From Eledone cirrhosa (taxonomy: Eukaryota), in the NCBI GenBank assembly GCA_964016885.1, contig OZ024741.1, positions 352,098,001 through 352,162,000 of the forward strand: a DNA stretch of 64,000 bases, given 5' to 3'. Shown here in pieces: positions 6,528 through 63,329 of the stretch (positions are counted from its first letter, which is position 1; the number at the start of each line of letters is the position of its first letter). The notes under the pieces are model-generated. The model was not told the DNA's origin and ran no database searches. It saw nothing but the letters and a program-made list of their open reading frames with translations. The position numbers were made by a program, and so were the translations under genes.

Positions 6528-8645
6528 ACACTGGAAGAAATAATATCTTGATTACACACAGCCAGGAGAGTGGTGGAACACCTTCAATAATGTAGCCCTG
6601 GTTACACTGAGTAAGGGGGCTCATCATGAATAATGTGACCTTTGTTAAAACTGTCTGGGGTAGAGGACATTTTGGATAATGTAGTCCTGGGTACACTGGT
6701 TGGAGGAGTGGTGCTGGATGAATAAAACTAGAATAGGGTTACACAATCTGAGTTGATACCAAAGTAGCAAATAATAACAATATTATGAAACTTGGCAAAC
6801 GAACCTATTATATAGATATTGATATGAGGAGTTATCTTTTTAAAGTTTACTTCATTGTTGTTGCTGTTTAAAAGAGAGGGATAATTTATTTTAATTGGGG
6901 GTGGTTTACCTCTGACAATTGGCCAAATTAGAATTGAAAGTAAAGCCCAGCAAAGCCCCTCAAAGTCTTGTGAGATATTGGACTTCGTGCTCATATGTTT
7001 GCTAAGATCTGTTGCTGGTGTTTGTTTCATTGTTTCTGGGCAAAACACTTAATTCTACATTGCTCTAGTTCACTCACATAGATGTGGGTGTTGTAGCTGT
7101 TGTGACAGCTATATATGTATCATAACAATGTGAAAAAAAATGATACAATATCAAAATAACAGTTGCTCATTTAGGCCTTAATGGTTCATTGTGAAGACTC
7201 TTAACAATTTTGATAGCAAACCATCTGAAATCGCCTCCAATTCTAAAATAGTTACTAAGCTGTTTATTTTAAAGATCAAAACTATATCCTTGTTAACCAT
7301 GTTCAGTATAAATTCATTCCACCAAATTCTAAATTTGAGTTGGCTATTTTTAATACTATTTACCCAGAAATGCCTGAAATAACAATTACAGCATCAGTCA
7401 AAATGCCTTGAGGTATTTGCTCTGGCCTTGTTTGTTCTAAGTTCAAATCCTGTTGTAATCTACTTGGCTCATAAAATTAATCCATCATTCATTTTAATAC
7501 CCCTCTCTGGTCCTTGGCTGGTAGGCTTAATCCATTACTTCGTTTAACATCACCATATTGTCCTTGGATGTCTTTAATGATGTCTACCACCTTGTCCTTG
7601 AGTGTCTTTAGTTGTGTTCATCACTTTATCGTGAGCATTCAGGCCAGGTTGCCAGTTTGAGGATATTCCCCTCTCTTCTCTTGACCATGCAGTATTTATT
7701 TTAATGAACCTTCATTTTGATATCGATCATTATCTACATCACTTCATCATCTCAGTTGTGTTGACATGAATAAGAGGCATTTGTAAATCACACAAAAGGT
7801 GATGGCAAATCTTGGGTTGCTGCTGTTATTAACCACAGGATCTATATTATATCCTCCCCCCTCCACATATTGTAATCATCAATGCCATGTTTTTTCCACA
7901 TGCCCCATCCTGTCAATGGCTAGCATATTTAGATAAATTTTCCAGGCTTTTTAAGATATCAATATAGCGAATACTGACCTGGTCCAATGAAACAAAAACC
8001 ACACATTTCACAGAGTTTCTATTAAAAAAAATATATCTAGGTATTTTTTTCTTTAATTTTGTTACAAATACTGTTGTAATTTTTAATAAATCCTTCACAT
8101 GTCTTCATTCATTAATTAATTGAAATAGTTTATTTCATAAGGAATAAAGTTGTAAAACGATTAAGAAGCTGTTAAAGTGACTTAGTGTGTTTGTGGTGCT
8201 CACTCATGCACGCATAAAATATGTACACACACACAAATCTCTTATCTCTATCTTCACCTGTCAATAGATACAGATCAAATGCTAAAATTTACACTGCTAC
8301 CACCAATGCAAAAACACAATAGTTTCTAGTATAAGTAGGTAGATGATGCTCTTGGTGTAGTTAATAGCAATAACTGTTCAATATTAATTGAAGAAAGGAA
8401 AAAATCTCACTCACCTCCTTTCTTCATCATTCTCTCTCCCTTAACTTTTCTCTCTTTCACCCTTTCTCACGCCCCTCTCTTCACATTCCTTCTCACCTTT
8501 CTCTCTCACTCTGTACTGTCAATATAAAATCTTGTTATAGGTCGTTGCTTCTACCACTTAAATAAACATTTATATATATATATATATATATACTTAAACT
8601 TACCTATACTAATTATTATCTAGATACATATGACCTTAGCAACCT

Positions 8646-9356
8646 GTGCCCTACAAGACGAGCAAGAAAACCCACACAGAAAGATGGAACAGGTGGACCA
8701 GAGCCATACGGACCCCCAGAAACCACGATGAACTAAAGAAAATGATTGCACATGCGGTGGGGGCCAGTATAAAATTAACCCTTAAGGAACATATGTTCAA
8801 ATTTAATGGAAAAACATATGCCCAAGAGGATGGAGCAGCCATTGGTGTTAGCATTGCAGGTGACATAGCTAACCTATTCATGGTATGGTGGGACAATAAA
8901 CTTAAAGAACAATTAGAAGACAGCAGCCTCTTAACCCTGATAATGTACTCCCGCTACATTGATAATATAAACATTGTAGTAAAAACACCCCCACTAGAGA
9001 ACAGTCAGGAATTAGAGAAAAACACCATGGAAAGCATCCAGCAAATAGCTAACTCCATCCACCAGAGTATTAGTGTTACTATAGACTACCCAAGCAAACA
9101 CCCCAACCATCGGTTACCTGTACTAGACACAGAGCTCTGGTTAGAAACCATTAATAACAAACAAATCCTCCATTCCCAAATATCTGATCCACTGAAACTC
9201 AGCTGTTTCGGATCACACCAAAATCAACATACTGATTACAGATTTGGTACGGGTGATGAGAAACGTGTCCCACATGTGCAGCCCCAAAGAACTAGAGAGA
9301 CACGTACAACACTTCATCCACCGTATGCAGTTCTCTGGTTACAATCAGAGAGATAA
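8646..9356 (+). pseudogene. PLE reverse transcriptase fragment (disrupted)
   Basis: FKFNGKTYAQEDGAAIGVSIAGDIANLFM, YSRYIDNI (YIDD changed to YIDN) and LPVLDTELW. The frame is lost after ~9170. Confidence 0.85.
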
Positions 9357-9398
9357 AATCAGAGTATATATAGAGGAGCCAGAACCAAATGAGAAAAA

Positions 9399-10061
9399 AT
9401 GGTAAATAATGATACAAATGGGACCTGCCCATTGTATAGGAGCACATTTTGGAATAGAATAGAAAGAACTAGTTATAAGGTTAATAGAATAAACTCATGG
9501 TATGATAGCAATACATACCAGAGTGTAATGTTCATCAATACAACCTCTAGAGGTGAATTAGCTTACAAATTTAGAAGGGCCCTAGATAAACATAAACTTA
9601 ATATTAAGATAGTAGAAAGACCAGGTACCTCCATAAAAACACTTATTAGCAATACATACCCTTTTCAAAGACCTCCCTGTATAGATAAGAAATGCATAAT
9701 CTGTAAACTAAGCCCCCATATTAACTGTAAAACTAGAAATGTAGTATATAGCATAAGATGTACTGAAGGACAATGTAAAGATAAGAATATAGTGTACATA
9801 GGTGAGACAGCTCGTAGTATAGGAGAAAGGTTAAATGAACACTGGCGAGAACTTCAAGATAAAAAAGAATCATCAATACTCCCCCAACATGCTAAAATAG
9901 AACATAAGGACAAATTAGAGAACATAGAAATAAAAATAGAATCTACACACAGAAAAGACACAATGTTTAGACAAATCACAGAGGCAATAAACATAAATGA
10001 ACTCCAACCAAAATTAAATAGAAAACATGAATGGAATAGCAACATCACAATTTACAATTAA
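9399..10061 (+). pseudogene. PLE Cys-rich linker plus GIY-YIG endonuclease
   Basis: PCIDKKCIICK...CKTRNVVYSIRC...VYIGETARSIGERLNEH...RQITEAININELQPKLNRKHEW. Confidence 0.9.
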
Positions 10062-10240
10062 CGACAAAATGAAAACACACACACACACATAGAACAAACA
10101 GCCAACCAGTAACATGTAAATAAACAAATATAAACACACACAGACACCCGGATGTAACACATGCGCAAACTAAGCACACAAAAACAAGATGGCGTAGGAC
10201 AGAACAAAGGAGAGGCACAAAACAAAGAAAAGAATCCCCA

Positions 10241-10283
10241 GTCACTGAAAAGGTCACAGAATGTGTGACGAAAGAACTTTGAC
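10241..10283 (+). ncRNA. Degenerate minimal hammerhead ribozyme in PLE 3' region
   Basis: GTCA-CTGAAAAG-GTCACA(gaatg)TGTGAC-GAAA-GAAC-TT-TGAC. Stems I and II pair, but the core differs from CUGANGA. Confidence 0.55.
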
Positions 10284-10481
10284 AATATATGAACAACCGT
10301 CTGGTTATGGAACCAACCAACCAATTTATAAATTCTTAAATTTATAAATGTAATTTATAATAAATTGGAGTGAAAGCAACTGGTGCGTGTGTTTCTTATT
10401 GGCAAATGACCCTCCCAAAACATAACAATATCGGTTTCAACACACGTTTTCAGATAAGGAATCTTGCTAAACAAATTCAGA

Positions 10482-10484
<3 letters not shown>

Positions 10485-10545
<61 letters not shown>

Positions 10546-10743
10546 TATATATATAATATATATATATTGTTATACTTTGGGAGATTCTTGTTGCCAATAA
10601 GAAACACACGCACCAGTTGCTTTCACTTCAATTTATTATAATAAATTTATAAATTTCCGGTTGGTTGGTTGGTTCCACAACCAGATGGTTGTTTATATAT
10701 TGTCAAAGTTCTTTCGACACATTGCTAAACAAATTCAGAAACG

Positions 10744-10807
<64 letters not shown>

Positions 10808-12576
10808 AGGCACATGGCTTAGTGGTTAGAGCATTGGGCTTGCAATCGAAAGGTTGTGAGTTCAATTCTCAGACCGGGTGATGTGTTGTTTCCTTGAGCA
10901 AGACAATTTATTTCACATTGCTCCAGTTTACTCAGCTGTAGAAATGAGATGATAGGGACTGGGGTCCCTATCATTCCACTGTAAAGTGGTCGTGGAGGTG
11001 CCACGGCAAAAAAGCACCCAGCACTCACTGTAAATGAGGTTGGTGTTAGGAAGGGCATCCAGCTGTAGAAATCAAGCCAGCATCAGTTCCCGTCCCACCC
11101 TTGCAAGCAGGGAAAAAGCGGACGTAAAATGAAATGAATGAATGAATATATATATATATATATATATAATATATATATATTATATATATATATAATATAT
11201 ATATATAATATATATATATAATATATATATAATATATATATATTATATATATATATAATATATATATATAATATATATATATAATATATATATATAATCT
11301 ATAATATATGTATATATTATATAATATATATATAATCTATAATATATGTATATATTATATATATATATATGTATATATTATATATATTATATATATATAT
11401 ATGTATATATTATATATATTATATATATATATTATATGTATATATTATATATATATATTATATATAATATATATATATATATATTATATATAATATATTT
11501 ATATATATATATATATATGTATATATTATATATATATATTATATATGTATATATTATATATATATATTATATATAATATATTTATATATATATATATGTA
11601 TATATTATATATATATATTATATATGTATATATTATATATATATATATTATATATATATATGTATATATTATATATGTATATATTATATATATATATATT
11701 ATATATATATATGTATATATTATATATGTATATATTATATATATATAATATATTTATTTATATATATATAATATATAATATATGTATATATATAATATTT
11801 ATATATATAATATATGTATGTGTATGTGTGTATATATATATATGTGTATGTGTGTGTGTGTGTGTGTGTATGAAGTATGTATGTATATATGTGTATGTGT
11901 ATGTAAGTGTACGTTTTATATATATGTGTATATGTATATATGTATGCGTACATATATATATGTATATATATATGTATATACATATATATGTGTGTGTAAG
12001 TATGCTTTTGTGTTTTTGTGTGTGTGTTTGCATGTGTAGTTTTATTTTATTTTTCCTTTCCTTATCCTTTCTCCAGCCTCACTTTCATATAGATTGCATT
12101 TTTGGTTTTTAAAATCCAAATTCAATAAACAAACCAGGATTTTTTCATTCTGAGGATTGAAAGCAAAACCTTTTGCTTTTAAGAAACCACTGGTAAATGG
12201 AATAATTGCCTTATGTTGTTTATTACATAATAATGATATATAATATATATATATATAATATATTATATATATATAATATATTATATATATATAATATATT
12301 ATATATATATAATATATATATATATAATATATATATATATAATATATTATATATATATAATATATTATATATATATAATATATATATATATAATATATAT
12401 ATATAATATATTATATATATATATATATATAATATATTATATATATATAATATATATCATATATATATATAATATATTATATATAATATATAATATATTA
12501 TATATATATAAAATATATATATATAATATATTATATATATATATATAATATATTATATATATATATATATATATAA

Positions 12577-17644: not shown

Positions 17645-20600
17645 TATCTATCTATCTAAGGCGGGTAAAATTCCCGAGATCCATGGACGAGTTCTCTCCA
17701 GCGGTCTCTGTCCCTCATTATCGCTGCCATATCCTGCATCTCCAACAAACCAGTGTCTGTCCTTAGGGCATCAACATATGTTAACCTTGGTCTTCCTCTT
17801 CTAGTGTGTCCATGTAGGGGCTCCCAAAGGAGCACTGAGTGCAATGTCAACTCTGGATGTCGGTGAGCATGTCCAGCAAACCTCAGTCTCCTCTGTGTCA
17901 CTTTTGAGCTGACTTTTGGGATGCTCCCATACAGCTCTGAGATTTTCATCCTCAGTGTATACTGATTAATGTTCAGAGCCATCCTCAGCATTCTCGTGTA
18001 GCACCCATCCACCATCTGAGTGAGTCTCTTGGTCAGTGTCCAAGTCTCAGACCCACACAGCAGCACAGACTCCACTACAGCAATGAAGAGGCGGATTTTC
18101 AGGTCTCTACGAAGGTCCGACTTCCACACCGATCTCAAGCTGTGACACGCCGCCCAGGCCTTGCTCTTCCTCTCAACCACATCATCCTCCGTATTCCCAA
18201 TCTTTGCTCCCAAATACAGGAAGTCCTCAACCAATTCCAGCGGCTTCCCGCCTACATTAGTGATCCCCTCTGGCTTCTCAACATTCTCTACCAGATATTT
18301 TGTTTTAGTCTCATTCATTCTCAGCCCCACACTCATCGACACAGTCTCAACCTCCCGCATCAAATCCTCTGCCTCCTTCACTGTATTTGTTACCAAAACT
18401 ATGTCGTCAGCAAATTCAGCATCCGATACCTTTTTCGCCCTAACTCTCCTGCTCTGAGCCGGTGCTACAGTAAAGCCAGAGTACTGGTGTTTCTCCAGTG
18501 CAAGGCGCATACAATAGTCCACTACGATGATAAAAAGGTAGGGAGCCAATGTATCTCCCTGGAGCACTCCAGCCAGTATCTCAAAGAACTCTGTCATCCC
18601 ATCAGGTGTAATGACTTGGGCTTTGGTGTTGGTGTAGAGCAGTGATATCAGGTCCACTATCCTCTTGGGAATTCCATAAGCCTGTAAGATCTTCATCAGG
18701 CAGTAACGGTCCACAGAATCAAAGGCCTTCCTAAAGTCAATGAAAACCATGACCGCAGGAAGGCACTTTGCTCTAGCTCCCTCTAATATCCTCCTCAGCA
18801 TCAGGATGTGACTGGTGGTTGATCTACCCTCTCTGAAGCCGTTCTGGTTGTCCCTGAGCTTCTTCTCCATCTCAGGCTGGATCCTGTTAAGAATCATCCT
18901 GTTGAGGGTCTTTGCCACAAGTGACGTCAGTGAGATCCCCCGGCAGTTGTTGGTGTTAGAGAGATCTCCCTTCTTTGGCACTGGGACGATGTTACTGATC
19001 CTCCAATGATTCGGGGCAACTCCTTTCTCCAGTGCCCCGTTACAGAACCCCAGGATGATATCATCAAAATCACACCTCTTCATCACCTCTGATGCCACTC
19101 CATCTTCTCCATGAGCCTTGCCCTCCTTGATCTTCTTCTTGGCTCTCTGAAGCTCCTCTCTGGTGAAGGGCTCTGTCTCAACATCCAGTTCCTCAAACAG
19201 CCGCCTGATCTCCCCAGTGCTCTGGGCTGTGGAGGGTGGCTCTCCTAGTAGGGTCCTAAAATGGTCTAGCCATTTCCTCTTCCTATCCTCGGGCCCCGTT
19301 CCCTGGATCTGACTCGAACACCTTTTCTTCCTCCCTGTGATCTCGTTGATGATCATCCAGCTCTCCTTACATCCAGATCTGTCAACCGCTCTCTCCACAC
19401 TTCTGATCTTCTCTATCAGTGCCTCCTCTCTGACCTCAGTGTAAGCGGTACAGAGCTCTTCCCTCATCACCTCCACAGTCTCCATCCTCTCCTCCGTAGG
19501 ATCAGCATAGAATTGGTCCCTGGCAGCTTTCAGGTGTTCTCTGGCTGCACACACTTTTGGGTTTGCAGAGCTGACGTGCTTCCCTTTGTTCTTTTTCCTC
19601 GGCACCAGGGTTTCACTTGCTTTCGCCACTGCATTGGTGAAGTGCCCGTACCTCCTCCTCACACTCTCCCCAGTCCATCCAATCTCTCTCTCCTCTGACT
19701 CTCCACACAGAGCACTAAACCTGTTTCTCACTTCCACTGTGAACCTCTCCTGTAGCTTATCATCTTCCTTGAAAGCTCCCCAGTCATAGATTGTTCTCCG
19801 GGGCTGAGCCTTGCTCTTTCTTAAGCTCACACGGACCTCACTCATAACAAGCCGGTGGTCACTACCCAGTGTACTGAAATAGCTGTATGGTTCCGTGTTC
19901 AGAACACTATTCCGCCACTTTTTCCTCACCAGAATGAAATCAATCTGGGACTTGGACAGGTGCATATCTGAGATGTAGGTCCACATCTTCCCCAGATTCT
20001 TCCTAAACCTTAGGTTGGTCGCCATCAAGTTCGCCTCCAGCAGGGTGTCTCTCAGTAGTCTTCCATTTCGGTTGGTGTTGTTATGGAAGTACCAGCAAGG
20101 ATCATCACTGCCCTCCTTACTCAGATGTACATTGAAGTCCCCCAAAACAAGCAGGATATTGTGTGCCTGACTGGTGTTGACAGCTCTACACACCTCCTCA
20201 TGGAACTCCTCGGCATTCACATCACTGTCCCCCTCGGTTGGACTATAGGCTGAGATGACTGTCAGTCTTGGGTTTCCATTGAAGGTCACCCTCAACACTT
20301 GCGGGGAGATAGGCATTATTTCCCTCACCAACAGATTGGTTTTTGCACTGAACACAAAACCCACTCCTCCTACTGCAGCATTTGTTGTGTTCTTCACTGC
20401 CGATGTAGTGATGAGCTGGCTCTTCCTCCCGATCATCACACTCCTCACGGGCTCATCGTGTAGAATCCTGTGTTCTTGGATTGCAAGTATCTGTATACCA
20501 CTCTCCTCGAACAGATGTCCCACTCCTCTCACTTCTCCAGCGTTCGAATAGTCCTCACATTCAAAGTGCCCATTTTGATGGCTCTTCTGCAGGACAAAAC

Positions 20601-20964
20601 TGCATTCTTTATATTTGTCTCAGAGACAGCTGATCCATCATCCACTGGCCCTCTCTGTGGCTCTAAGCCAGCAGAGTCATAACGACCAGGCTGCTCCTTG
20701 ACAGTGTAATTAGGGGCTCTAACCCTAGTGCTGTTAGATCGACTCTCCATATTTCTTTTCAATGGCTGACAATACCTTACCGGCGCCACTCGAATAAGGT
20801 AGTTATTTAACCCATAAATGGAGCCCTAACAGGTACTAGCACCCTGGGCCAGGGCAGACCTGGGAGTCATGACAACTAAGGGGTAACTCCACATTCCCCA
20901 AATCTCCTGAACTCCCGAACTGGAGCCTTGCCACTGGATGTAGTTTAATGTCATACCCAGGACA
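17645..20964 (-). mobile_element. Apparently full-length APE+RT non-LTR retrotransposon (RTE/RTEX-like)
   Basis: Flanked on both sides by (TA)n. Has a GC-balanced 5' leader, one long ORF, and a stop codon merging into a (TAGA)n tail. Confidence 0.92.
17656..20532 (-). CDS. LINE polyprotein: apurinic-like endonuclease plus reverse transcriptase (958 aa open; true N-terminus in 20529-20789)
   Basis: APE motifs LAIQEH, SAYSPT, LGDFN, QIDFIL, SDH. RT motifs VPVPKKGD, QNGFREGRST, FIDFRKAFDSV, GVLQGDTLAP, FADD, FLYLG. MGTLNVRT lies in the upstream frame. Confidence 0.92.
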   Translation of the reverse strand: MRGVGHLFEESGIQILAIQEHRILHDEPVRSVMIGRKSQLITTSAVKNTTNAAVGGVGFVFSAKTNLLVREIMPISPQVLRVTFNGNPRLTVISAYSPTEGDSDVNAEEFHEEVCRAVNTSQAHNILLVLGDFNVHLSKEGSDDPCWYFHNNTNRNGRLLRDTLLEANLMATNLRFRKNLGKMWTYISDMHLSKSQIDFILVRKKWRNSVLNTEPYSYFSTLGSDHRLVMSEVRVSLRKSKAQPRRTIYDWGAFKEDDKLQERFTVEVRNRFSALCGESEEREIGWTGESVRRRYGHFTNAVAKASETLVPRKKNKGKHVSSANPKVCAAREHLKAARDQFYADPTEERMETVEVMREELCTAYTEVREEALIEKIRSVERAVDRSGCKESWMIINEITGRKKRCSSQIQGTGPEDRKRKWLDHFRTLLGEPPSTAQSTGEIRRLFEELDVETEPFTREELQRAKKKIKEGKAHGEDGVASEVMKRCDFDDIILGFCNGALEKGVAPNHWRISNIVPVPKKGDLSNTNNCRGISLTSLVAKTLNRMILNRIQPEMEKKLRDNQNGFREGRSTTSHILMLRRILEGARAKCLPAVMVFIDFRKAFDSVDRYCLMKILQAYGIPKRIVDLISLLYTNTKAQVITPDGMTEFFEILAGVLQGDTLAPYLFIIVVDYCMRLALEKHQYSGFTVAPAQSRRVRAKKVSDAEFADDIVLVTNTVKEAEDLMREVETVSMSVGLRMNETKTKYLVENVEKPEGITNVGGKPLELVEDFLYLGAKIGNTEDDVVERKSKAWAACHSLRSVWKSDLRRDLKIRLFIAVVESVLLCGSETWTLTKRLTQMVDGCYTRMLRMALNINQYTLRMKISELYGSIPKVSSKVTQRRLRFAGHAHRHPELTLHSVLLWEPLHGHTRRGRPRLTYVDALRTDTGLLEMQDMAAIMRDRDRWRELVHGSREFYPP

Positions 20965-28237: not shown

Positions 28238-28469
28238 TTGTTTTAAAGTACTGACAATGTCACTTACTTCTATTTTCAGTAAACAAGGGGAGATAAGCTG
28301 ACAGCTCTGTTTCGTACTTGGTACTTATCAAAGCTCACCACTCCTCCTGTTTGCTGAAAATTATGAATGTTGGATTCTTATAGAATCCCAGTAATAATCA
28401 GGAACTGATTATACAGAGCAGTTGCCGGTCCAGCAAAAATTGAAAATTAGAATTGGTGCTCTGAAATAG

Positions 28470-28520
<51 letters not shown>

Positions 28521-28911
28521 TGTCACTACTTTAAAACAATAGCGTAAGGTCTTCAAAATGCTTTTAATTAAGCATACAGTGTATTGCAAAATACACTATA
28601 TATACATTGATATATATATATATCGCTATTTCAGAGCACCAATTTTAATTTTCAATTTTTGCTGGACCGGCAACCGCTCTGTATAATCAGTTCCTGATTA
28701 TTACTGGAATTCTATAAGTACCAACAAGTACGAAACAGAGCTCTGTCAGCTTATCTCCCCTTGTTTGCTGAAAATAGAAGTAAGTGGTATTGTCACTACT
28801 TTAAAACAATAGTGTAAGGTCTTCAAAATGCTTTTAATTAAGCATACAGTGTATTGCAAAATAGACTATATATGCATTCATATATATATCGCTATTTCAG
28901 AGCACCAATTC

Positions 28912-28975: not shown

Positions 28976-29589
28976 TATTGAAATTTGAGTGATTGTTCTA
29001 GTTTTGTGAAAGTTAAATAATAACTTTCTCTCACCATATTTTATAAATCTGGTGAAAAGATTAAGTACCCCATTGTATCTAAACATGGTAAAATTTCAGT
29101 TGTTTTTGTTTTAATTATTTGTTTACACTTAAAAGCACTATGAGTGGTTTGGGGGAGAGAGGGGTGCAGTTTACCAGCTGCAAGTGAATGCAGTTTGAAT
29201 ACTTTTATGTTGAAAACCCTCATCATCTAAATAGAGGAAAGATTGTTAGAAATTTACTAAGAGTTTCTCCTGACTTGTTGCAGTGTTTAGTTACAGTTTA
29301 AGTGTTTTATATAGCTTGGCTGTCTAAAGTTATTATAGAATGTAACACAGCATAAATCTCAGAGATTATTGGTTGACTCTTTCCTGTTTTAAGGAACTTA
29401 GTGCTCACAATTCAAGATATGTGTTAATATATATATTTTAGAAATACGAAATTCCAATAAATCCTAATTGTATTCTATTATAAGTTGAGCCAACTTAATA
29501 CAGCTTTATATGCAAATGAGATTAATTGTATCATTTACACAGATGAGAAAACTATATATTCTCGCCTGTTTTCAAGTCGAGCGAGAGGT

Positions 29590-29633
29590 ATCCTCCTGAT
29601 GAGAACCAGTTCAGTTTGAAATGCATCGACGAT
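29590..29633 (+). ncRNA. Minimal type-I hammerhead ribozyme
   Basis: ATCCTC-CTGATGA-GAAC(cagttca)GTTT-GAAA-TGCA-TC-GACGAT: intact core, palindromic stem III ATGCAT, AUC cleavage triplet, one stem I mismatch. Confidence 0.75.
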
Positions 29634-29999
29634 TGTCCCCCTTGCTTCTGCTAGACACCGCCAGGTGGCGATAGCTTCCTGTGTTTTTTGCATAGTTACA
29701 GCTTTCTAAATGTTTATTTATAAACACCGTATTTCTTTAGAAATATGAAATTCCAATACATATCTGTATACAGCTATACTTGAAACTAAATCTTAATTTT
29801 CTCTCTCTCTTTCTTTCTCTCTTTTTCTCTATCTCTCTCTCTCTTTCTCTCTCTCTCTCATCATTTTCATTGTTTAACGTCCATCTTCCATGCTACCATG
29901 GGTTATATATATATATATATTTGATAACCAGCTCGTTATGAGGTGACTAAAATTGTTAGTGCCAGTAAGTGAATGAGAAAGTTGGTGCAAAGCAATAAT

Positions 30000-53061: not shown

Positions 53062-53477
53062 TATATATACACACATACACACATGCACACACAAAACCTA
53101 AATATGTGTCGAGTATTGCGCTGATTTATGGTCATCCATATAGCGAACACTACACCACACCATGCTACATGCACATGTGTGTGTGTACAGTAGAAAGGAG
53201 GAGGGGGTATTTCTATACCTAGCCTGATTCAGATTTCAAAAAGAGAGATATTTTAATATTAATATTAGTTTTTTGTTAAGAATTTCAACTCTGTAGCTTT
53301 TAGTATGTTTTGTGATTGATATTGTATCTTTTGTGATAATGTTTGGTGTAGTTAGAAAAAAATATTTTGAATTTTTGTGGTTGTCATTTTTTGTGCAAGT
53401 AAGTCTTTTTGTGTAGTAGATGTAGATACATATATAAAAAAATAAATGTTCATGGGAATATTTTGAATACTTTGTAT

Positions 53478-55431
53478 ATAATAAGGCAATCAGAGATATG
53501 AAGATAGGGAAGGCAACCGGTCCATCGGGTATAGCTGCCGAGATGCTGAAGGCATCTGGGTCTGTAGGTCACACTATAACCACACGTATCATTAACCAGG
53601 TAATACTAGAAGGGGCCATACCAAAAGATTGGTGCAGTAGCATCATTGTCAACTGCTACAAAGGTAAAGGCGATGCACTAGATAGAGGAAACTATAGAGG
53701 TATAAAGTTGATGGACCAGGTCATGAAAGTAACAGAAAGAGTTATAGCACAGCTGATTAGGGACTGGGTGAATATAGACGAGATGCAATTTGGGTTTGTA
53801 CCAGGGAAAGGCACCACTGATGCCCTCTTCCTTGTGAGGCAATTACAGGAAAAGTACCTAGCTAGGGGTAAGCCACTCTACTTGGCATTTGTCGACCTTG
53901 AGAAAGCCTTTGACAGAGTTCCACGTGCAGTAATCTGGTGGGCTCTTAGAAAACTAGGAGTAGATGAATGGCTTGTGAAAGCGGTACAAGCCATGTATAG
54001 GGGAGCAGTCAGCAAAGTTAGGATTAGCAATGAGTATAGCGAGGAATTTAGCGTACAGGTTGGGGTCCACCAGGGCTCTGTTCTTAGCCCTCTCCTGTTC
54101 ATCATAGTCCTGCAGGCAATAACGGAGGAGTTTAAGACCGGATGCCCATGGGAACTCCTGTATGCTGATGACCTCGCACTCATAGCTGAATCTATGGTAG
54201 AACTAGAGAATAAATTCCAAACCTGGAAGCAGGGACTAGAGAGAAAGGGCCTCAAAGTCAACATGACAAAGACTAAGGTCCTTGTAAGTAGACGAGAAAA
54301 CAGAACCCAGATCCCCTCAGGGAAATGGCCTTGCTCAGTATGTAGGAAAGGTGTAGGTAGGAACTCCATTCTCTGCCCCAAATGCAAACAATGGGTACAC
54401 AAGAGATGTAGCGGGATCTCAGGAAGCTTAATTAAGAATGTAGGATTCACATGCAGCAGCTGTGCTGAAACAGCAAGCAAACAGCCACAGGAAACAAGTA
54501 CCACCAATCTCTGGGAGGGCCCTGTAGAAACAGTAGACAGCTTCTGCTACCTAGGTGACCGAATTAGCAACGGAGGTGGGTGCTCAGAAAGTACAATAAC
54601 TAGGGTAAGAACGGGATGGAAGAAGTTTAGGGAACTACTACCACTGCTAGCTGCAAAAGGCTTCTCCCTCAGAATGAAAGGCAGACTGTATGATGCGTGT
54701 ATCCGAACAGCGATGTTGCATGGTAGTGAGACCTGGGCGCTGAAGGTGGAAGACTTACGTAGATTAGAGAGAAACGAAGCCTGCATGCTCCGATGGATGT
54801 GTAACAGTAATATACGTGAACGACAAAGCATAAAGGAATTGAGAGAGAGACTGAGCATAAGAGGAATCAAATGCTGCGTGCAGGAGAGGCGGTTACGCTG
54901 GTATGGACATGTGATGCGTATGAAGGATGACAGCTGCATAAAAAGGTGCAGAGCACTAGAAGTTGATGGAAACCGCGGAGTGGGGAGACCCAAGATGACT
55001 TGGGATGAGGTGATAAAAGCCGACCTTACCCAACTACACCTCTCAAAGTCAATGACACACGACCGTGACTTCTGGCGTCACGCAGTAATACAGGGTACCC
55101 GACCTCCCATGGGTACATGCTGAAGCATATAAACAATATGCCCCCACTCCCCCCACCGCAAAGTGGTCGTGGAGGTGCCACGGCAAAAAAGCACCCAGCC
55201 CACACTGTAAAGTGGACGTGTAGGCGCCACGAAAAAGCACCCAGCACTCACTGTAAATGAGGTTGGTGTTAGGAAGGGCATCCAGCTGTAGAAATCAAGC
55301 CAGATCAGTTCCTGTATGAGCAAGGCATGGTCAGCCGACCAGACACTGCCCACAACAGGACAACCCGTCTAACCCATGCTAGCGTGGAAGAACGGACGTA
55401 AAACGGTGATGATGATGATGATGATGATGAT
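53478..55431 (+). mobile_element. 5'-truncated RTE/BovB-like LINE subfamily B
   Basis: Uninterrupted RT ORF, modular 3' UTR and (GAT)n tail, with TA at both junctions. Confidence 0.93.
53498..55123 (+). CDS. RTE reverse transcriptase (541 aa, endonuclease missing) with embedded PHD-like finger
   Basis: NYRGIKL, QFGFVPG, FVDLEKAFDRV, GVHQGSVLSP, YADD, CxxC..CxxCxxxxHxxC..CxxC, FCYLG. Confidence 0.9.
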   Translation: MKIGKATGPSGIAAEMLKASGSVGHTITTRIINQVILEGAIPKDWCSSIIVNCYKGKGDALDRGNYRGIKLMDQVMKVTERVIAQLIRDWVNIDEMQFGFVPGKGTTDALFLVRQLQEKYLARGKPLYLAFVDLEKAFDRVPRAVIWWALRKLGVDEWLVKAVQAMYRGAVSKVRISNEYSEEFSVQVGVHQGSVLSPLLFIIVLQAITEEFKTGCPWELLYADDLALIAESMVELENKFQTWKQGLERKGLKVNMTKTKVLVSRRENRTQIPSGKWPCSVCRKGVGRNSILCPKCKQWVHKRCSGISGSLIKNVGFTCSSCAETASKQPQETSTTNLWEGPVETVDSFCYLGDRISNGGGCSESTITRVRTGWKKFRELLPLLAAKGFSLRMKGRLYDACIRTAMLHGSETWALKVEDLRRLERNEACMLRWMCNSNIRERQSIKELRERLSIRGIKCCVQERRLRWYGHVMRMKDDSCIKRCRALEVDGNRGVGRPKMTWDEVIKADLTQLHLSKSMTHDRDFWRHAVIQGTRPPMGTC

Positions 55432-61905: not shown

Positions 61906-62061
61906 GAGAGAGAGAGAGAGAGAGAGAGAGTATATGTTGGTTGTATGCCAACACCTCAGTATGCAGGCTGGAGCACTCGACGAAGTGCGCAGGTTGGTTT
62001 GGTTACTCCGGAGTAATGTAAAATAAATAAGTCAAATGTTTAAAATTTAGCTTCGTTTATT

Positions 62062-62103
62062 ACTGCTATATATATTTCGGTGGCTGTGACCTCTTCAGGC
62101 AGT
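62062..62103 (-). ncRNA. Minimal hammerhead ribozyme, shortened stem II variant (left arm)
   Basis: Minus strand reads ACTGC-CTGAAGA-GGT(cacagcc)ACC-GAAA-TATATA-TA-GCAGT. Confidence 0.65.
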
Positions 62104-62337
62104 CCGAATTAGTGTGGTATAGACAAGTACATATGTTGTTGAGGTGTATAATTTTGTCAATACTCTGATATGCCCAGTTCCTGGTTGGGTTGTTATTTCA
62201 CTGAGGAACTGGAATCACGGATATGATTCCAGTTCTTCAGTGAAATAACAACCCAACCAGGAACTGGGCATATCAGAGTATTGACAAAATTATACACCTC
62301 AACAACATATGTACTTGTCTATACCACACTAATTCGG

Positions 62338-62392
62338 ACTGCCTGAAGAGGTCACAGCCAAAGATGGCTGTCACCGAAATATATATAGCAGT
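62338..62392 (+). ncRNA. Minimal type-I hammerhead ribozyme (right arm)
   Basis: ACTGC-CTGAAGA-GGTCACAGCCA(aaga)TGGCTGTCACC-GAAA-TATATA-TA-GCAGT: perfect stem I, 10 of 11 pairs in stem II, palindromic stem III, AUA triplet. Confidence 0.82.
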
Positions 62393-63329
62393 AATAAACG
62401 AAGCTAAATTTTAAACATTTGACTTATTTATTTTACTTTATTTTATATATATATATATATAATCTTTATTTCTCTTTCTTTCCATTTCTCTATCTTCTTA
62501 TTTCTCTTTTTCTCTCTCTGTTACTTTATTCCGCTGTCTTTTTATTCCCCTTTCTCTCTCTGTCTCTGTCTACTTATTGTCTTATCTCTGGATACTGAAA
62601 TGTTATACTGATTGGTACTACTTGTTGCTCAGATTTTTTTTTATTTTGTAAGCTACTTGGAAATATCCGAAACTGACAGTTCCTCCCTCTATTTTAAGTT
62701 GCCTATTGACTTCTTGTCTGTTAGTGATTAAAAAAAGATTTTTGTTTTAATTTATTTTAACTGGCTTCAGTTTCATAAAAATATATTTCTTTGTTTCCTT
62801 CTTTTGTTCATTATATTTACTAGAAATTCAAAGAAAATATCTGTGATGCAATGATTTCTTTATTAGTCACAGATGGCCTATACTGTGTGTGTTATATGAT
62901 ACAATGTTTTCTTCTCCCACTTTTTTTCTTTTGGTGATGGTTGTTGTTAAATTTATTATTCTCTTCTCTTTACTTTCCTGATTTACCTCATCTTTTAGCA
63001 GTACCTGAGTGATATGGCAAGGGATTTTTAGGTGCCCATGTAGTCATAAGCTGATACAGAGACTTTCCCAACTTTCTCTCTTTTGGCCCAGTGGAACATC
63101 CAGGATGTAACAGCTGGAAGGAAAGAAGGGCTGAACCATAGTTGGTCAATTTGGCAATCTTTAGAGTGTTGAGCCTGTTTTTGTTCTCTGTAGTCAAATT
63201 CATCCGTTCATGATCTATAAAGAAAGTACCAGTCCAACTCTGAGATTAATGCCTTTCAAAATATTTTCTAACCCTTTTTGATGGCAACCTGCTCAAAATT
63301 AAACTAAAACTTTCCAACATTATTTTATA

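What the first reader, a model, noticed from the sequence alone, without database searches (positions are those of the whole stretch)
29437..29758. 299-bp unit bounded by direct repeats carrying a hammerhead: candidate retrozyme monomer
Seen: TTTAGAAATA(C/T)GAAATTCCAATA occurs at 29437-29459 and 29736-29758, bracketing a GC-richer core with an intact hammerhead motif (29590-29633). The variants GTTT-G and ATGCAT are what CpG decay of GTTC-G and ACGCGT would produce. The sequence is unrelated to the 62-kb ribozyme. Established: metazoan non-LTR retrozymes are units of a few hundred bp with a minimal hammerhead that yield circular RNAs. Inference: this is a one-unit-plus-overlap insertion copied from a circular or tandem RNA template. 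The 23-bp repeat could instead be a target-site duplication.
Basis: partly seen in the sequence, partly recalled or inferred. Interest (0 to 1): 0.75.

Follow-up and report, generated by a model that had tools for sequence, protein, structure and literature searches.

The report
Decayed Penelope-spread hammerhead retrozyme copy
This is one damaged copy of a repeat present many hundreds of times in this animal genome; its 341-base (not 299-base) unit carries a hammerhead motif predicted to cut its own RNA and was likely pasted in by Penelope-type jumping-gene enzymes, probably from an RNA circle, which makes it a new family of a known kind of element.

Summary
The repeats and the hammerhead motif are real, but the unit is 341 bp. 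The '299 bp' comes from deletions in this copy, chiefly 30 and 12 nt. The 23-mer lies inside the element (not a TSD), and the element runs 29437-29798. It belongs to a dispersed non-coding family, probably low thousands of copies, none longer than about 2.1 units among those examined. Subfamilies keep the hammerhead core and show compensatory stem changes; this copy's stems are damaged and it has one ribozyme, so it could not release a circle. Insertions show a Penelope footprint: 3' ends at two fixed sites in TA/TC repeats and head-to-head arms that use one site each (17 of 20, then 26 of 28). A coding Penelope element in the same window behaves alike. Copies read through the predicted cut site, which fits a re-ligated circle but does not prove it. 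The unit carries a box found before this genome's U6 genes. No RNA data were available. The scan had already noted the same footprint and promoter in sibling families on other DNA of this genome, though not this sequence. Verdict: new member of animal non-LTR retrozymes.

The parts
29437..29798 (+). Whole insertion: a 5' partial unit plus one full unit plus a short 3' tail; single-armed, ends at family site B
   Evidence: Alignment to the family majority; family ends
29437..29457 (+).
29458..29786 (+). One full 341-bp unit, shortened here to 329 bp, mainly by a 12-nt deletion
   Evidence: DNA contigs join 29786 back to 29458
29509..29520 (+). Box TATGCAAATGAG, matching the box at -77 to -79 of this genome's U6 genes (promoter role inferred)
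29553..29560 (+). TATA-like box, 44 nt after the box start (47-49 in U6); implies a start site near unit m125, inside the stretch deleted in this copy
   Evidence: inference
29589..29634 (+). Type I hammerhead: stem I 29589-95/29628-34, core 29596-29602, stem II 29603-06/29614-17, GAAA 29618-21, helix III 29621-26; predicted cut after 29627; damaged in this copy
29684..29689 (+). T6 run (T5 in the family majority, T3 in the younger subfamily), possible weak Pol III terminator
   Evidence: role inferred
29736..29758 (+). The 23-mer at its normal place in the unit (m291-313), ending at family 3' site A
29759..29798 (+). The roughly 40-44 nt stretch between sites A and B (Penelope-type 'tail')
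29425..29436 (.). TA run at the 5' flank (target microsatellite); no target-site duplication
29800..29859 (.). TC repeat at the 3' flank

Best explanation
The feature is a decayed insertion of a dispersed, non-coding 341-bp repeat family whose type I hammerhead motif is predicted to self-cleave, and which was likely copied into TA/TC microsatellites by the reverse transcriptase and GIY-YIG endonuclease of Penelope-like elements, probably from a re-ligated circular RNA. Shown: unit length, many dispersed copies, no coding sequence, compensatory stem changes, two fixed 3' ends about 44 nt apart, head-to-head arms that use one end each, variable 5' truncation, read-through of the cut site, and a U6-like box plus TATA upstream of the ribozyme. 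Inferred: rare copies with a promoter and two ribozymes (3 of 158 arms) would be transcribed by Pol III from about m125, reading through a weak T run. The two weak-helix-III ribozymes would cleave as a dimer and release a unit-length RNA, a host ligase would close it, and both ends of a Penelope-cut target would prime at sites A and B and copy about 0.2 to 2 turns. The copy in the window has one damaged ribozyme and would be a dead end.
For: Family: 71 matches from 40 scored of 3,182 candidates, best 40 at 82-87% apart from the window itself; 158 and 509 exact matches to two short motifs. Ends: 139 of 158 arms in 120 loci stop at site A or B, and 17 of 20 classed two-armed loci use A plus B; in an independent set, 105 of 131 arms and 26 of 28 loci. 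A dinucleotide repeat follows 104 of 158 3' ends against 1,004 of 6,300 flank samples. Control: the coding PLE family of this window (RT, GIY-YIG) ends at 10484-5 on one arm and at 10431 in 16 of 19 opposite arms, and 44 of 52 ends run into TA. PMC8557442 (passages) lists 5' truncation, partial tandems, inverted 5' copies, a 30-40 bp tail at one end and microsatellite bias as PLE features. Ribozyme under selection: C-G to G-C at the pair next to the cut in 8 of 112 loci; A-U/G-C swaps at three stem II pairs and one stem I pair between subfamilies with the core unchanged; covariation score 0.280 against 0.190 shuffled, 0 of 500, and far above slid registers. Read-through: 3 stops in 148 and 2 in 116 encounters with the cut site, equal to background; 9 of 158 arms cross it twice. 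Duplicated parts within one insertion share variants three times more than parts of different insertions (0.032 against 0.010 per site). Arms of 641-730 nt exist, longer than the roughly 580 nt a dimer could transcribe from its own promoter (my arithmetic), and no array of 3 or more units was seen among the top 30 hits of a dimer query. The box is in 3 of 3 distinct U6 promoters and 0 of 15 distinct U1/U2 upstream regions.
Against: No cleavage, transcription or circular RNA was observed. The compensatory changes are about five inherited events, not independent samples: the count of covarying pairs is no higher than in shuffles (339 of 500), and alignment A2 was pre-selected for core motifs. 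Read-through of the cut site also fits uncut linear RNA, which weak helix III makes plausible. The box was defined after seeing the U6 sequences, whole-region alignments to U6 promoters were weak (6, 263, 44 and 16 of 500 shuffles), box-to-TATA spacing is 3-5 nt shorter than in U6, and 5' ends do not pile up at the predicted start (0 of 108). A pile-up of 5' ends near site B (12 of 91) did not replicate (3 of 77, p 0.24). No coding PLE sharing sequence with the unit was found, so the partner is unidentified; the window's PLE end matches only weakly (21 of 500 shuffles). Only 40 of 4,442 candidates were scored in the dimer search, so rare long arrays may exist.
Confidence: 0.62

Rival explanations
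1. Same family and same Penelope enzymes, but the template is uncut linear RNA (from a dimer, a rare longer array or host read-through), with template jumps giving the more-than-unit lengths; the ribozyme matters only for trimming or rarely cuts.
For: Helix III is 2 bp with a 2-nt palindromic loop, which cleaves poorly as a monomer (PMC4209133 parts 1-2; PMC7229834 passages). The coding PLE family also reads through its own ribozyme variant. On the second pass, 5 of 32 arms stop within m181-187 of the cut (my tally; about p 0.09), a weak hint of cut 5' ends.
Against: Selection on the pair next to the cut together with seamless read-through is simplest if cut ends were rejoined. Arms of 641-730 nt exceed a dimer's own-promoter transcript, and no 3-mer was seen.
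Confidence: 0.27
2. The copies are solo or truncated pseudo-LTRs of a coding Penelope element not yet found, not an independent small element.
For: The insertion footprint is the same as a coding PLE's. The preprint 10.64898/2026.07.22.740005 (parts 1-3 read) derives retrozymes from pLTRs. tblastn used only the window's PLE proteins and could miss other clades.
Against: Upstream of unit position 1 lies position 341 of the same unit in tandem arms. PLE protein hits occur in 5 of 126 and 3 of 85 loci, none continuous with the unit, whereas 13 of 30 loci of the coding family run from the ORF into the end (my count). No common upstream sequence among 126 loci beyond duplicates and a few small groups.
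Confidence: 0.07
3. A 299-bp insert flanked by a 23-bp target-site duplication, or a locus that itself yields a 299-nt circle.
For: 22 of 23 identity between the repeats.
Against: The 23-mer is unit m291-313 and occurs (3 degenerate sites allowed) in 40 of 125 other loci. Family sequence continues 40 nt past the right repeat. The copy has one damaged ribozyme.
Confidence: 0.02

Closest known systems
Metazoan non-LTR retrozymes (coral, mussel, axolotl; Cervera and de la Pena 2020, PMC7229834: passages and Discussion read)
   Same: Non-coding unit of 150-450 bp, GC under 45%, one canonical type I hammerhead per unit, head-to-tail copies, stable predicted circle fold (z -8.3), PLEs present in the genome.
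   Different: Almost all copies are dispersed 0.2-2.1 unit insertions, with no long arrays seen. They show two fixed 3' ends, inverted arms and microsatellite targets; the words 'inverted' and 'microsatellite' do not occur in that paper. Expression and circles are untested here.
Non-LTR retrozymes as non-autonomous PLE derivatives (Li, Clavereau and Pollet, bioRxiv 10.64898/2026.07.22.740005: parts 1-3 of 5 read, supplements closed)
   Same: Monomers and dimers, PLE co-occurrence, proposed use of PLE enzymes; single-ribozyme copies regarded as inactive offspring.
   Different: There the link is sequence likeness to pLTRs in vertebrates. Here no matching pLTR was found and the link is the insertion footprint, compared with a coding PLE of the same genome.
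Penelope-like elements with C-terminal GIY-YIG (Craig et al. 2021, PMC8557442: passages; Cervera and de la Pena 2014, PMC4209133: parts 1-2 of 4)
   Same: 5' truncation, partial tandems, inverted 5' copy, tail at one end, TA targets, type I hammerhead in the terminal repeat.
   Different: No ORF; canonical, not minimal, hammerhead; a U6-like box that the window's PLE end lacks.
Newt satellite 2 (330 bp; snRNA-type internal promoter, Coats, Zhang and Epstein 1994: recalled, paper not held)
   Same: Unit of about 330-340 bp, weak helix III hammerhead, promoter-like boxes inside the unit.
   Different: Satellite arrays there, dispersed insertions here. The box here matches this genome's U6 and not its U1/U2 upstream regions.

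Membership tests
Metazoan non-LTR retrozyme | Short non-coding unit (about 150-450 bp) without LTR/PBS/PPT | tested here: met
   341-bp unit, 321 bp in a subfamily; no ORF continuous with it. PBS and PPT were not searched as such.
Metazoan non-LTR retrozyme | One type I hammerhead per unit with conserved core and stems | tested here: met
   Family level: invariant core positions 100-111 of 112 each, compensatory stem changes. This copy is damaged.
Metazoan non-LTR retrozyme | Head-to-tail copies with at least two ribozymes | tested here: met
   9 of 158 arms cross the cut site twice; longest 730 nt. The window copy itself has one ribozyme; no long arrays seen.
Metazoan non-LTR retrozyme | Self-cleavage in vitro | not testable with these tools
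   Needs a bench assay.
Metazoan non-LTR retrozyme | Expression as linear and circular unit-length RNA | not testable with these tools
   No raw RNA reads were available for this family.
PLE-mobilised element | Fixed 3' ends, 5' truncation, partial tandem and inverted arms, tail at one end | tested here: met
   coding PLE control
PLE-mobilised element | Microsatellite targets and no classical TSD | tested here: met
   104 of 158 3' ends against 16% background; no TSD at this copy
PLE-mobilised element | Sequence shared with the ends of a coding PLE | tested here: inconclusive
   None found; only one coding family was compared (21 of 500 shuffles)
Autonomous Penelope-like element | RT and GIY-YIG ORF between pLTRs | tested here: not met
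   0 of 211 loci with PLE protein hits continuous with the unit
Minimal PLE hammerhead (min-HHR) | No helix III, helix II 7-8 bp, helix I 4-5 bp | tested here: not met
   Helix I 6-7 bp, II 4 bp, III 2 bp with palindromic loop (definition in PMC4209133)
U6-type (Pol III type 3) promoter | Host U6 upstream box plus TATA at matching spacing | tested here: inconclusive
   Box shared with 3 of 3 U6 promoters and 0 of 15 U1/U2 regions; spacing 44 against 47-49; motif defined after the fact

The most novel reading that the evidence does not exclude
A self-promoted retrozyme. Each unit carries a captured U6-type Pol III promoter, so only insertions of about 1.8 units or more are fertile; they release a circle that Penelope enzymes copy from both ends of one DNA break. 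The younger subfamily lost the internal T5 terminator, which would raise read-through to the second ribozyme. The family then persists without satellite arrays, by circle-driven regeneration of dimers alone.
Probability: 0.3. Interest if true: 0.7.

Novelty: new member of a known kind. Interest (0 to 1): 0.4.

Why it matters
How animal retrozymes are transcribed and inserted is proposed but not shown in the papers read (PMC7229834 Discussion; preprint 10.64898/2026.07.22.740005). This family gives genome-level evidence for Penelope enzymes as the copying machinery, with a coding control from the same genome, and gives concrete constructs for testing the promoter, dimer cleavage and circle steps. 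Because it seems to lack long arrays, it tests the circle idea more sharply than satellite-like families do. The copy in the window is an ordinary dead copy, and the scan has noted the same pattern in several sibling families, so the added value is one more family and its subfamily comparison.

Tried and rejected
TSD reading: rejected. 299-bp unit and intact ribozyme: rejected. CpG origin of ATGCAT: rejected. Rfam: no hammerhead hit. A 5'-end pile-up at unit m18-24 seen in the first set failed in an independent set and was dropped. 5' ends at the cut site or at the predicted start site: not enriched. Link to the 62-kb element through a shared 10-16 nt word: not significant; that family had no PLE frame upstream in 30 loci. 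PLE remnants next to L067 and L083: separate elements. The idea that an abundant young AUA-triplet sibling is the scan's 310-nt family: only 13 exact matches to the test motif, not shown. No RNA holder listed. Contigs of three runs from one sample cover the 5' flank and junction without differences and show no empty allele; their depths were not used as copy numbers. The extended stem I pairs tabulated were mis-registered and are not used; energies for the constrained active fold are invalid (2-nt loop). Coats 1994 is not held. Paper searches; none listed a paper on cephalopod retrozymes or on a U6-type box in retrozymes, but subscription journals and preprint supplements were not seen.

Full report
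Observation. The two 23-mers lie at 29437-29459 and 29736-29758, 299 apart. Between them is a type I hammerhead motif: CUGAUGA at 29596, a 4-bp stem II with a 7-nt loop, GAAA at 29618, a 2-bp helix III closed by a palindromic 2-nt loop, and a predicted cut after 29627. Rfam does not recognise it, and this copy folds no better than shuffles.

The family. A search of the window's own genome (3.0 Gb; earlier scan notes call it an octopus, which I did not check) gave 3,182 first-look candidates, of which 40 were scored, at 82-87% identity apart from the window itself. Two short motifs match exactly 158 and 509 times. About 5 of 42 units carry the first motif region unchanged, which gives roughly 1,300 units; low thousands is a fair range. 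The majority unit is 341 bp. The window copy is unit m291-311, then m1-341, then m1-12, so it spans 29437-29798. It has a 30-nt deletion at the first junction and a 12-nt deletion in distal stem I; these, with three small indels, give the 299 spacing. The 23-mer is unit m291-313 and is found in 40 of 125 other loci, so it is not a target-site duplication. The flanks are a TA run and a TC repeat. The first 30 loci differ from the majority by 2.6-8.4% outside CpG (this copy 4.6%) and by about a quarter at CpG. A younger 321-bp subfamily has a median of 3.5%. No near-identical copies turned up, so the family looks quiet or extinct.

The ribozyme. In 112 loci covering it, each invariant core position is kept in 100-111; N7 is the one core site with a widespread variant; 24 of 112 are fully intact. 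The pair next to the cut is C-G in 76 and G-C in 8. Between subfamilies three stem II pairs and one stem I pair switch between A-U and G-C with the core unchanged, and the triplet changes from AUC to AUA. On 80 of 136 distinct sequences the covariation score is 0.280 against 0.190 shuffled (0 of 500), with 89.7% paired against 19-41% in slid registers. Limits: these are about five inherited events, the number of covarying pairs is not above shuffles, and the rows were picked for core motifs. By the definitions in PMC4209133 (parts 1-2 read) this is a canonical metazoan type I hammerhead of the kind that cleaves well only as a dimer. The window copy has a C.C mismatch in stem I, G.U for the first stem II pair and the stem I deletion; its region scores z +0.35 against -4.55 and -4.20 for the two majorities.

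Insertion footprint. After dropping 6 of 126 loci as duplicates, and arms under 60 nt or at locus edges, 158 arms in 120 loci remained: 64 end at site A (about m313), 75 at site B (about m16), 19 elsewhere. 33 loci have head-to-head arms, and 17 of the 20 with both ends classed use A on one arm and B on the other. A dinucleotide repeat follows 104 of 158 ends against 16% of flank samples. An independent set picked by a motif in the promoter region (85 of 90 loci after dropping repeats; 131 arms) gave 105 A/B ends and 26 of 28 A-plus-B pairs. 5' ends are scattered. PMC8557442 (passages) gives these as PLE features, including a 30-40 bp tail at one end. As a control, the coding PLE family in this window (RT and GIY-YIG) ends at 10484-5, its opposite arms end at 10431 in 16 of 19 cases, and 44 of 52 ends run into TA. 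In that family 13 of 30 loci run from the ORF into the end (my count). In the 341-bp family 8 of 211 loci have PLE protein hits nearby and none is continuous with the unit. The element is therefore non-coding, and its partner is unidentified.

Template. Arms pass the predicted cut at the background rate of stopping (3 of 148; 2 of 116), and 9 of 158 pass it twice. Repeated parts within one insertion share variants three times more often than parts of different insertions, so both arms came from the same source type. The longest arm among the top 30 hits of a dimer query is 730 nt, about 2.1 units (40 of 4,442 candidates scored). A ribozyme under selection whose cut is crossed without a scar, and arms longer than a dimer's own transcript, are simplest with a re-ligated circle, as proposed in PMC7229834 (Discussion read) and PMC4209133. 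Uncut linear RNA with template jumps is not excluded. Against my reading: a pile-up of 5' ends beside site B in the first set did not replicate, and on the second pass 5 of 32 arms stop near the cut, a non-significant hint of cut linear templates.

Promoter. The unit has TATGCAAATGAG at m51 and a TATA box at m95 (window 29509 and 29553). Three distinct U6 promoters of this genome have the same kind of box at -77 to -79 and TATA at -30; 15 distinct U1/U2 upstream regions lack it. This would put a start near m125, at the 5' arm of extended stem I. A T5 run follows the ribozyme (T5 in 46 of 86 arms), shorter than the T7-T10 of the U6 genes, and is T3 in the younger subfamily. Only 3 of 158 arms hold the box followed by two ribozymes. 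Limits: the motif was defined after the fact, spacing is 44 against 47-49, region-wide alignments were weak, and nothing was tested on RNA. A promoter had been mentioned in scan notes on sibling families before I ran this test, and further notes report the U6 likeness.

Comparison and verdict. The family meets the sequence-level features of animal non-LTR retrozymes and of PLE-mobilised elements; cleavage and circles could not be tested. It is not an autonomous PLE and not a minimal hammerhead. It differs from the published examples read in being dispersed as units of two or fewer, in its two-site footprint and in the U6-like box. The scan has noted that footprint and box in sibling families of 310-478 bp in this genome (AI notes, not support); no note matched this sequence or place. 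The six paper searches listed nothing on cephalopod retrozymes; preprint supplements and subscription journals were not seen. New member of a known kind; this copy is dead; interest 0.4.

Noticed in passing
window 8640-10485 and 10568-10745: Penelope remnant with RT and GIY-YIG frames, a CX4CxxC motif before the GIY-YIG (Neptune/Nematis type by PMC8557442) and a hammerhead variant near 10245; a second, two-armed insertion of the same family follows in the TA run. Used as control.
   Followed up: partly
window about 61930-62437: Very young (99-100% identical, 847 candidates) two-armed hammerhead element of another family; left arm has a 13-nt stem II deletion; no PLE frame upstream in 30 loci and no tandem unit seen in the 6 loci self-aligned.
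   Followed up: partly
L058, L249-L278: Younger 321-bp subfamily (median 3.5% from its majority) with an AUA cleavage triplet, four compensatory stem changes, a 17-nt deletion and T5 reduced to T3, while the promoter-like region is almost unchanged.
   Followed up: yes
L163, L164, L168 (U6 array): Some U6 repeats have a SINE-like insert between the TATA box and the U6 start, which would displace the promoter.
   Followed up: no
L169-L188: U1 and U2 upstream regions share TCAGT near -55 and an AATTA word near -90 and lack the U6 box.
   Followed up: no
L032, L065, L126, L373: The element starts at or near unit m20 directly after the tail of one other repeat; repeated targeting or an old composite.
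   Followed up: no
window 29627: 72% of the contig depth laid at the cut site reads A instead of C, with very uneven depth along the unit; a more abundant relative may exist that my motif search missed.
   Followed up: partly
window 17656-20619 (-) and 53438-55123 (+): LINE frames: endonuclease plus RT (987 aa), and RT with a PHD finger.
   Followed up: no
window 28377-28718: Inverted repeat with 122-nt arms, 94% complementary, next to TA runs; related pieces to 28907.
   Followed up: no
window 10815-10872: tRNA-like match (31 bits), probably a SINE head.
   Followed up: no
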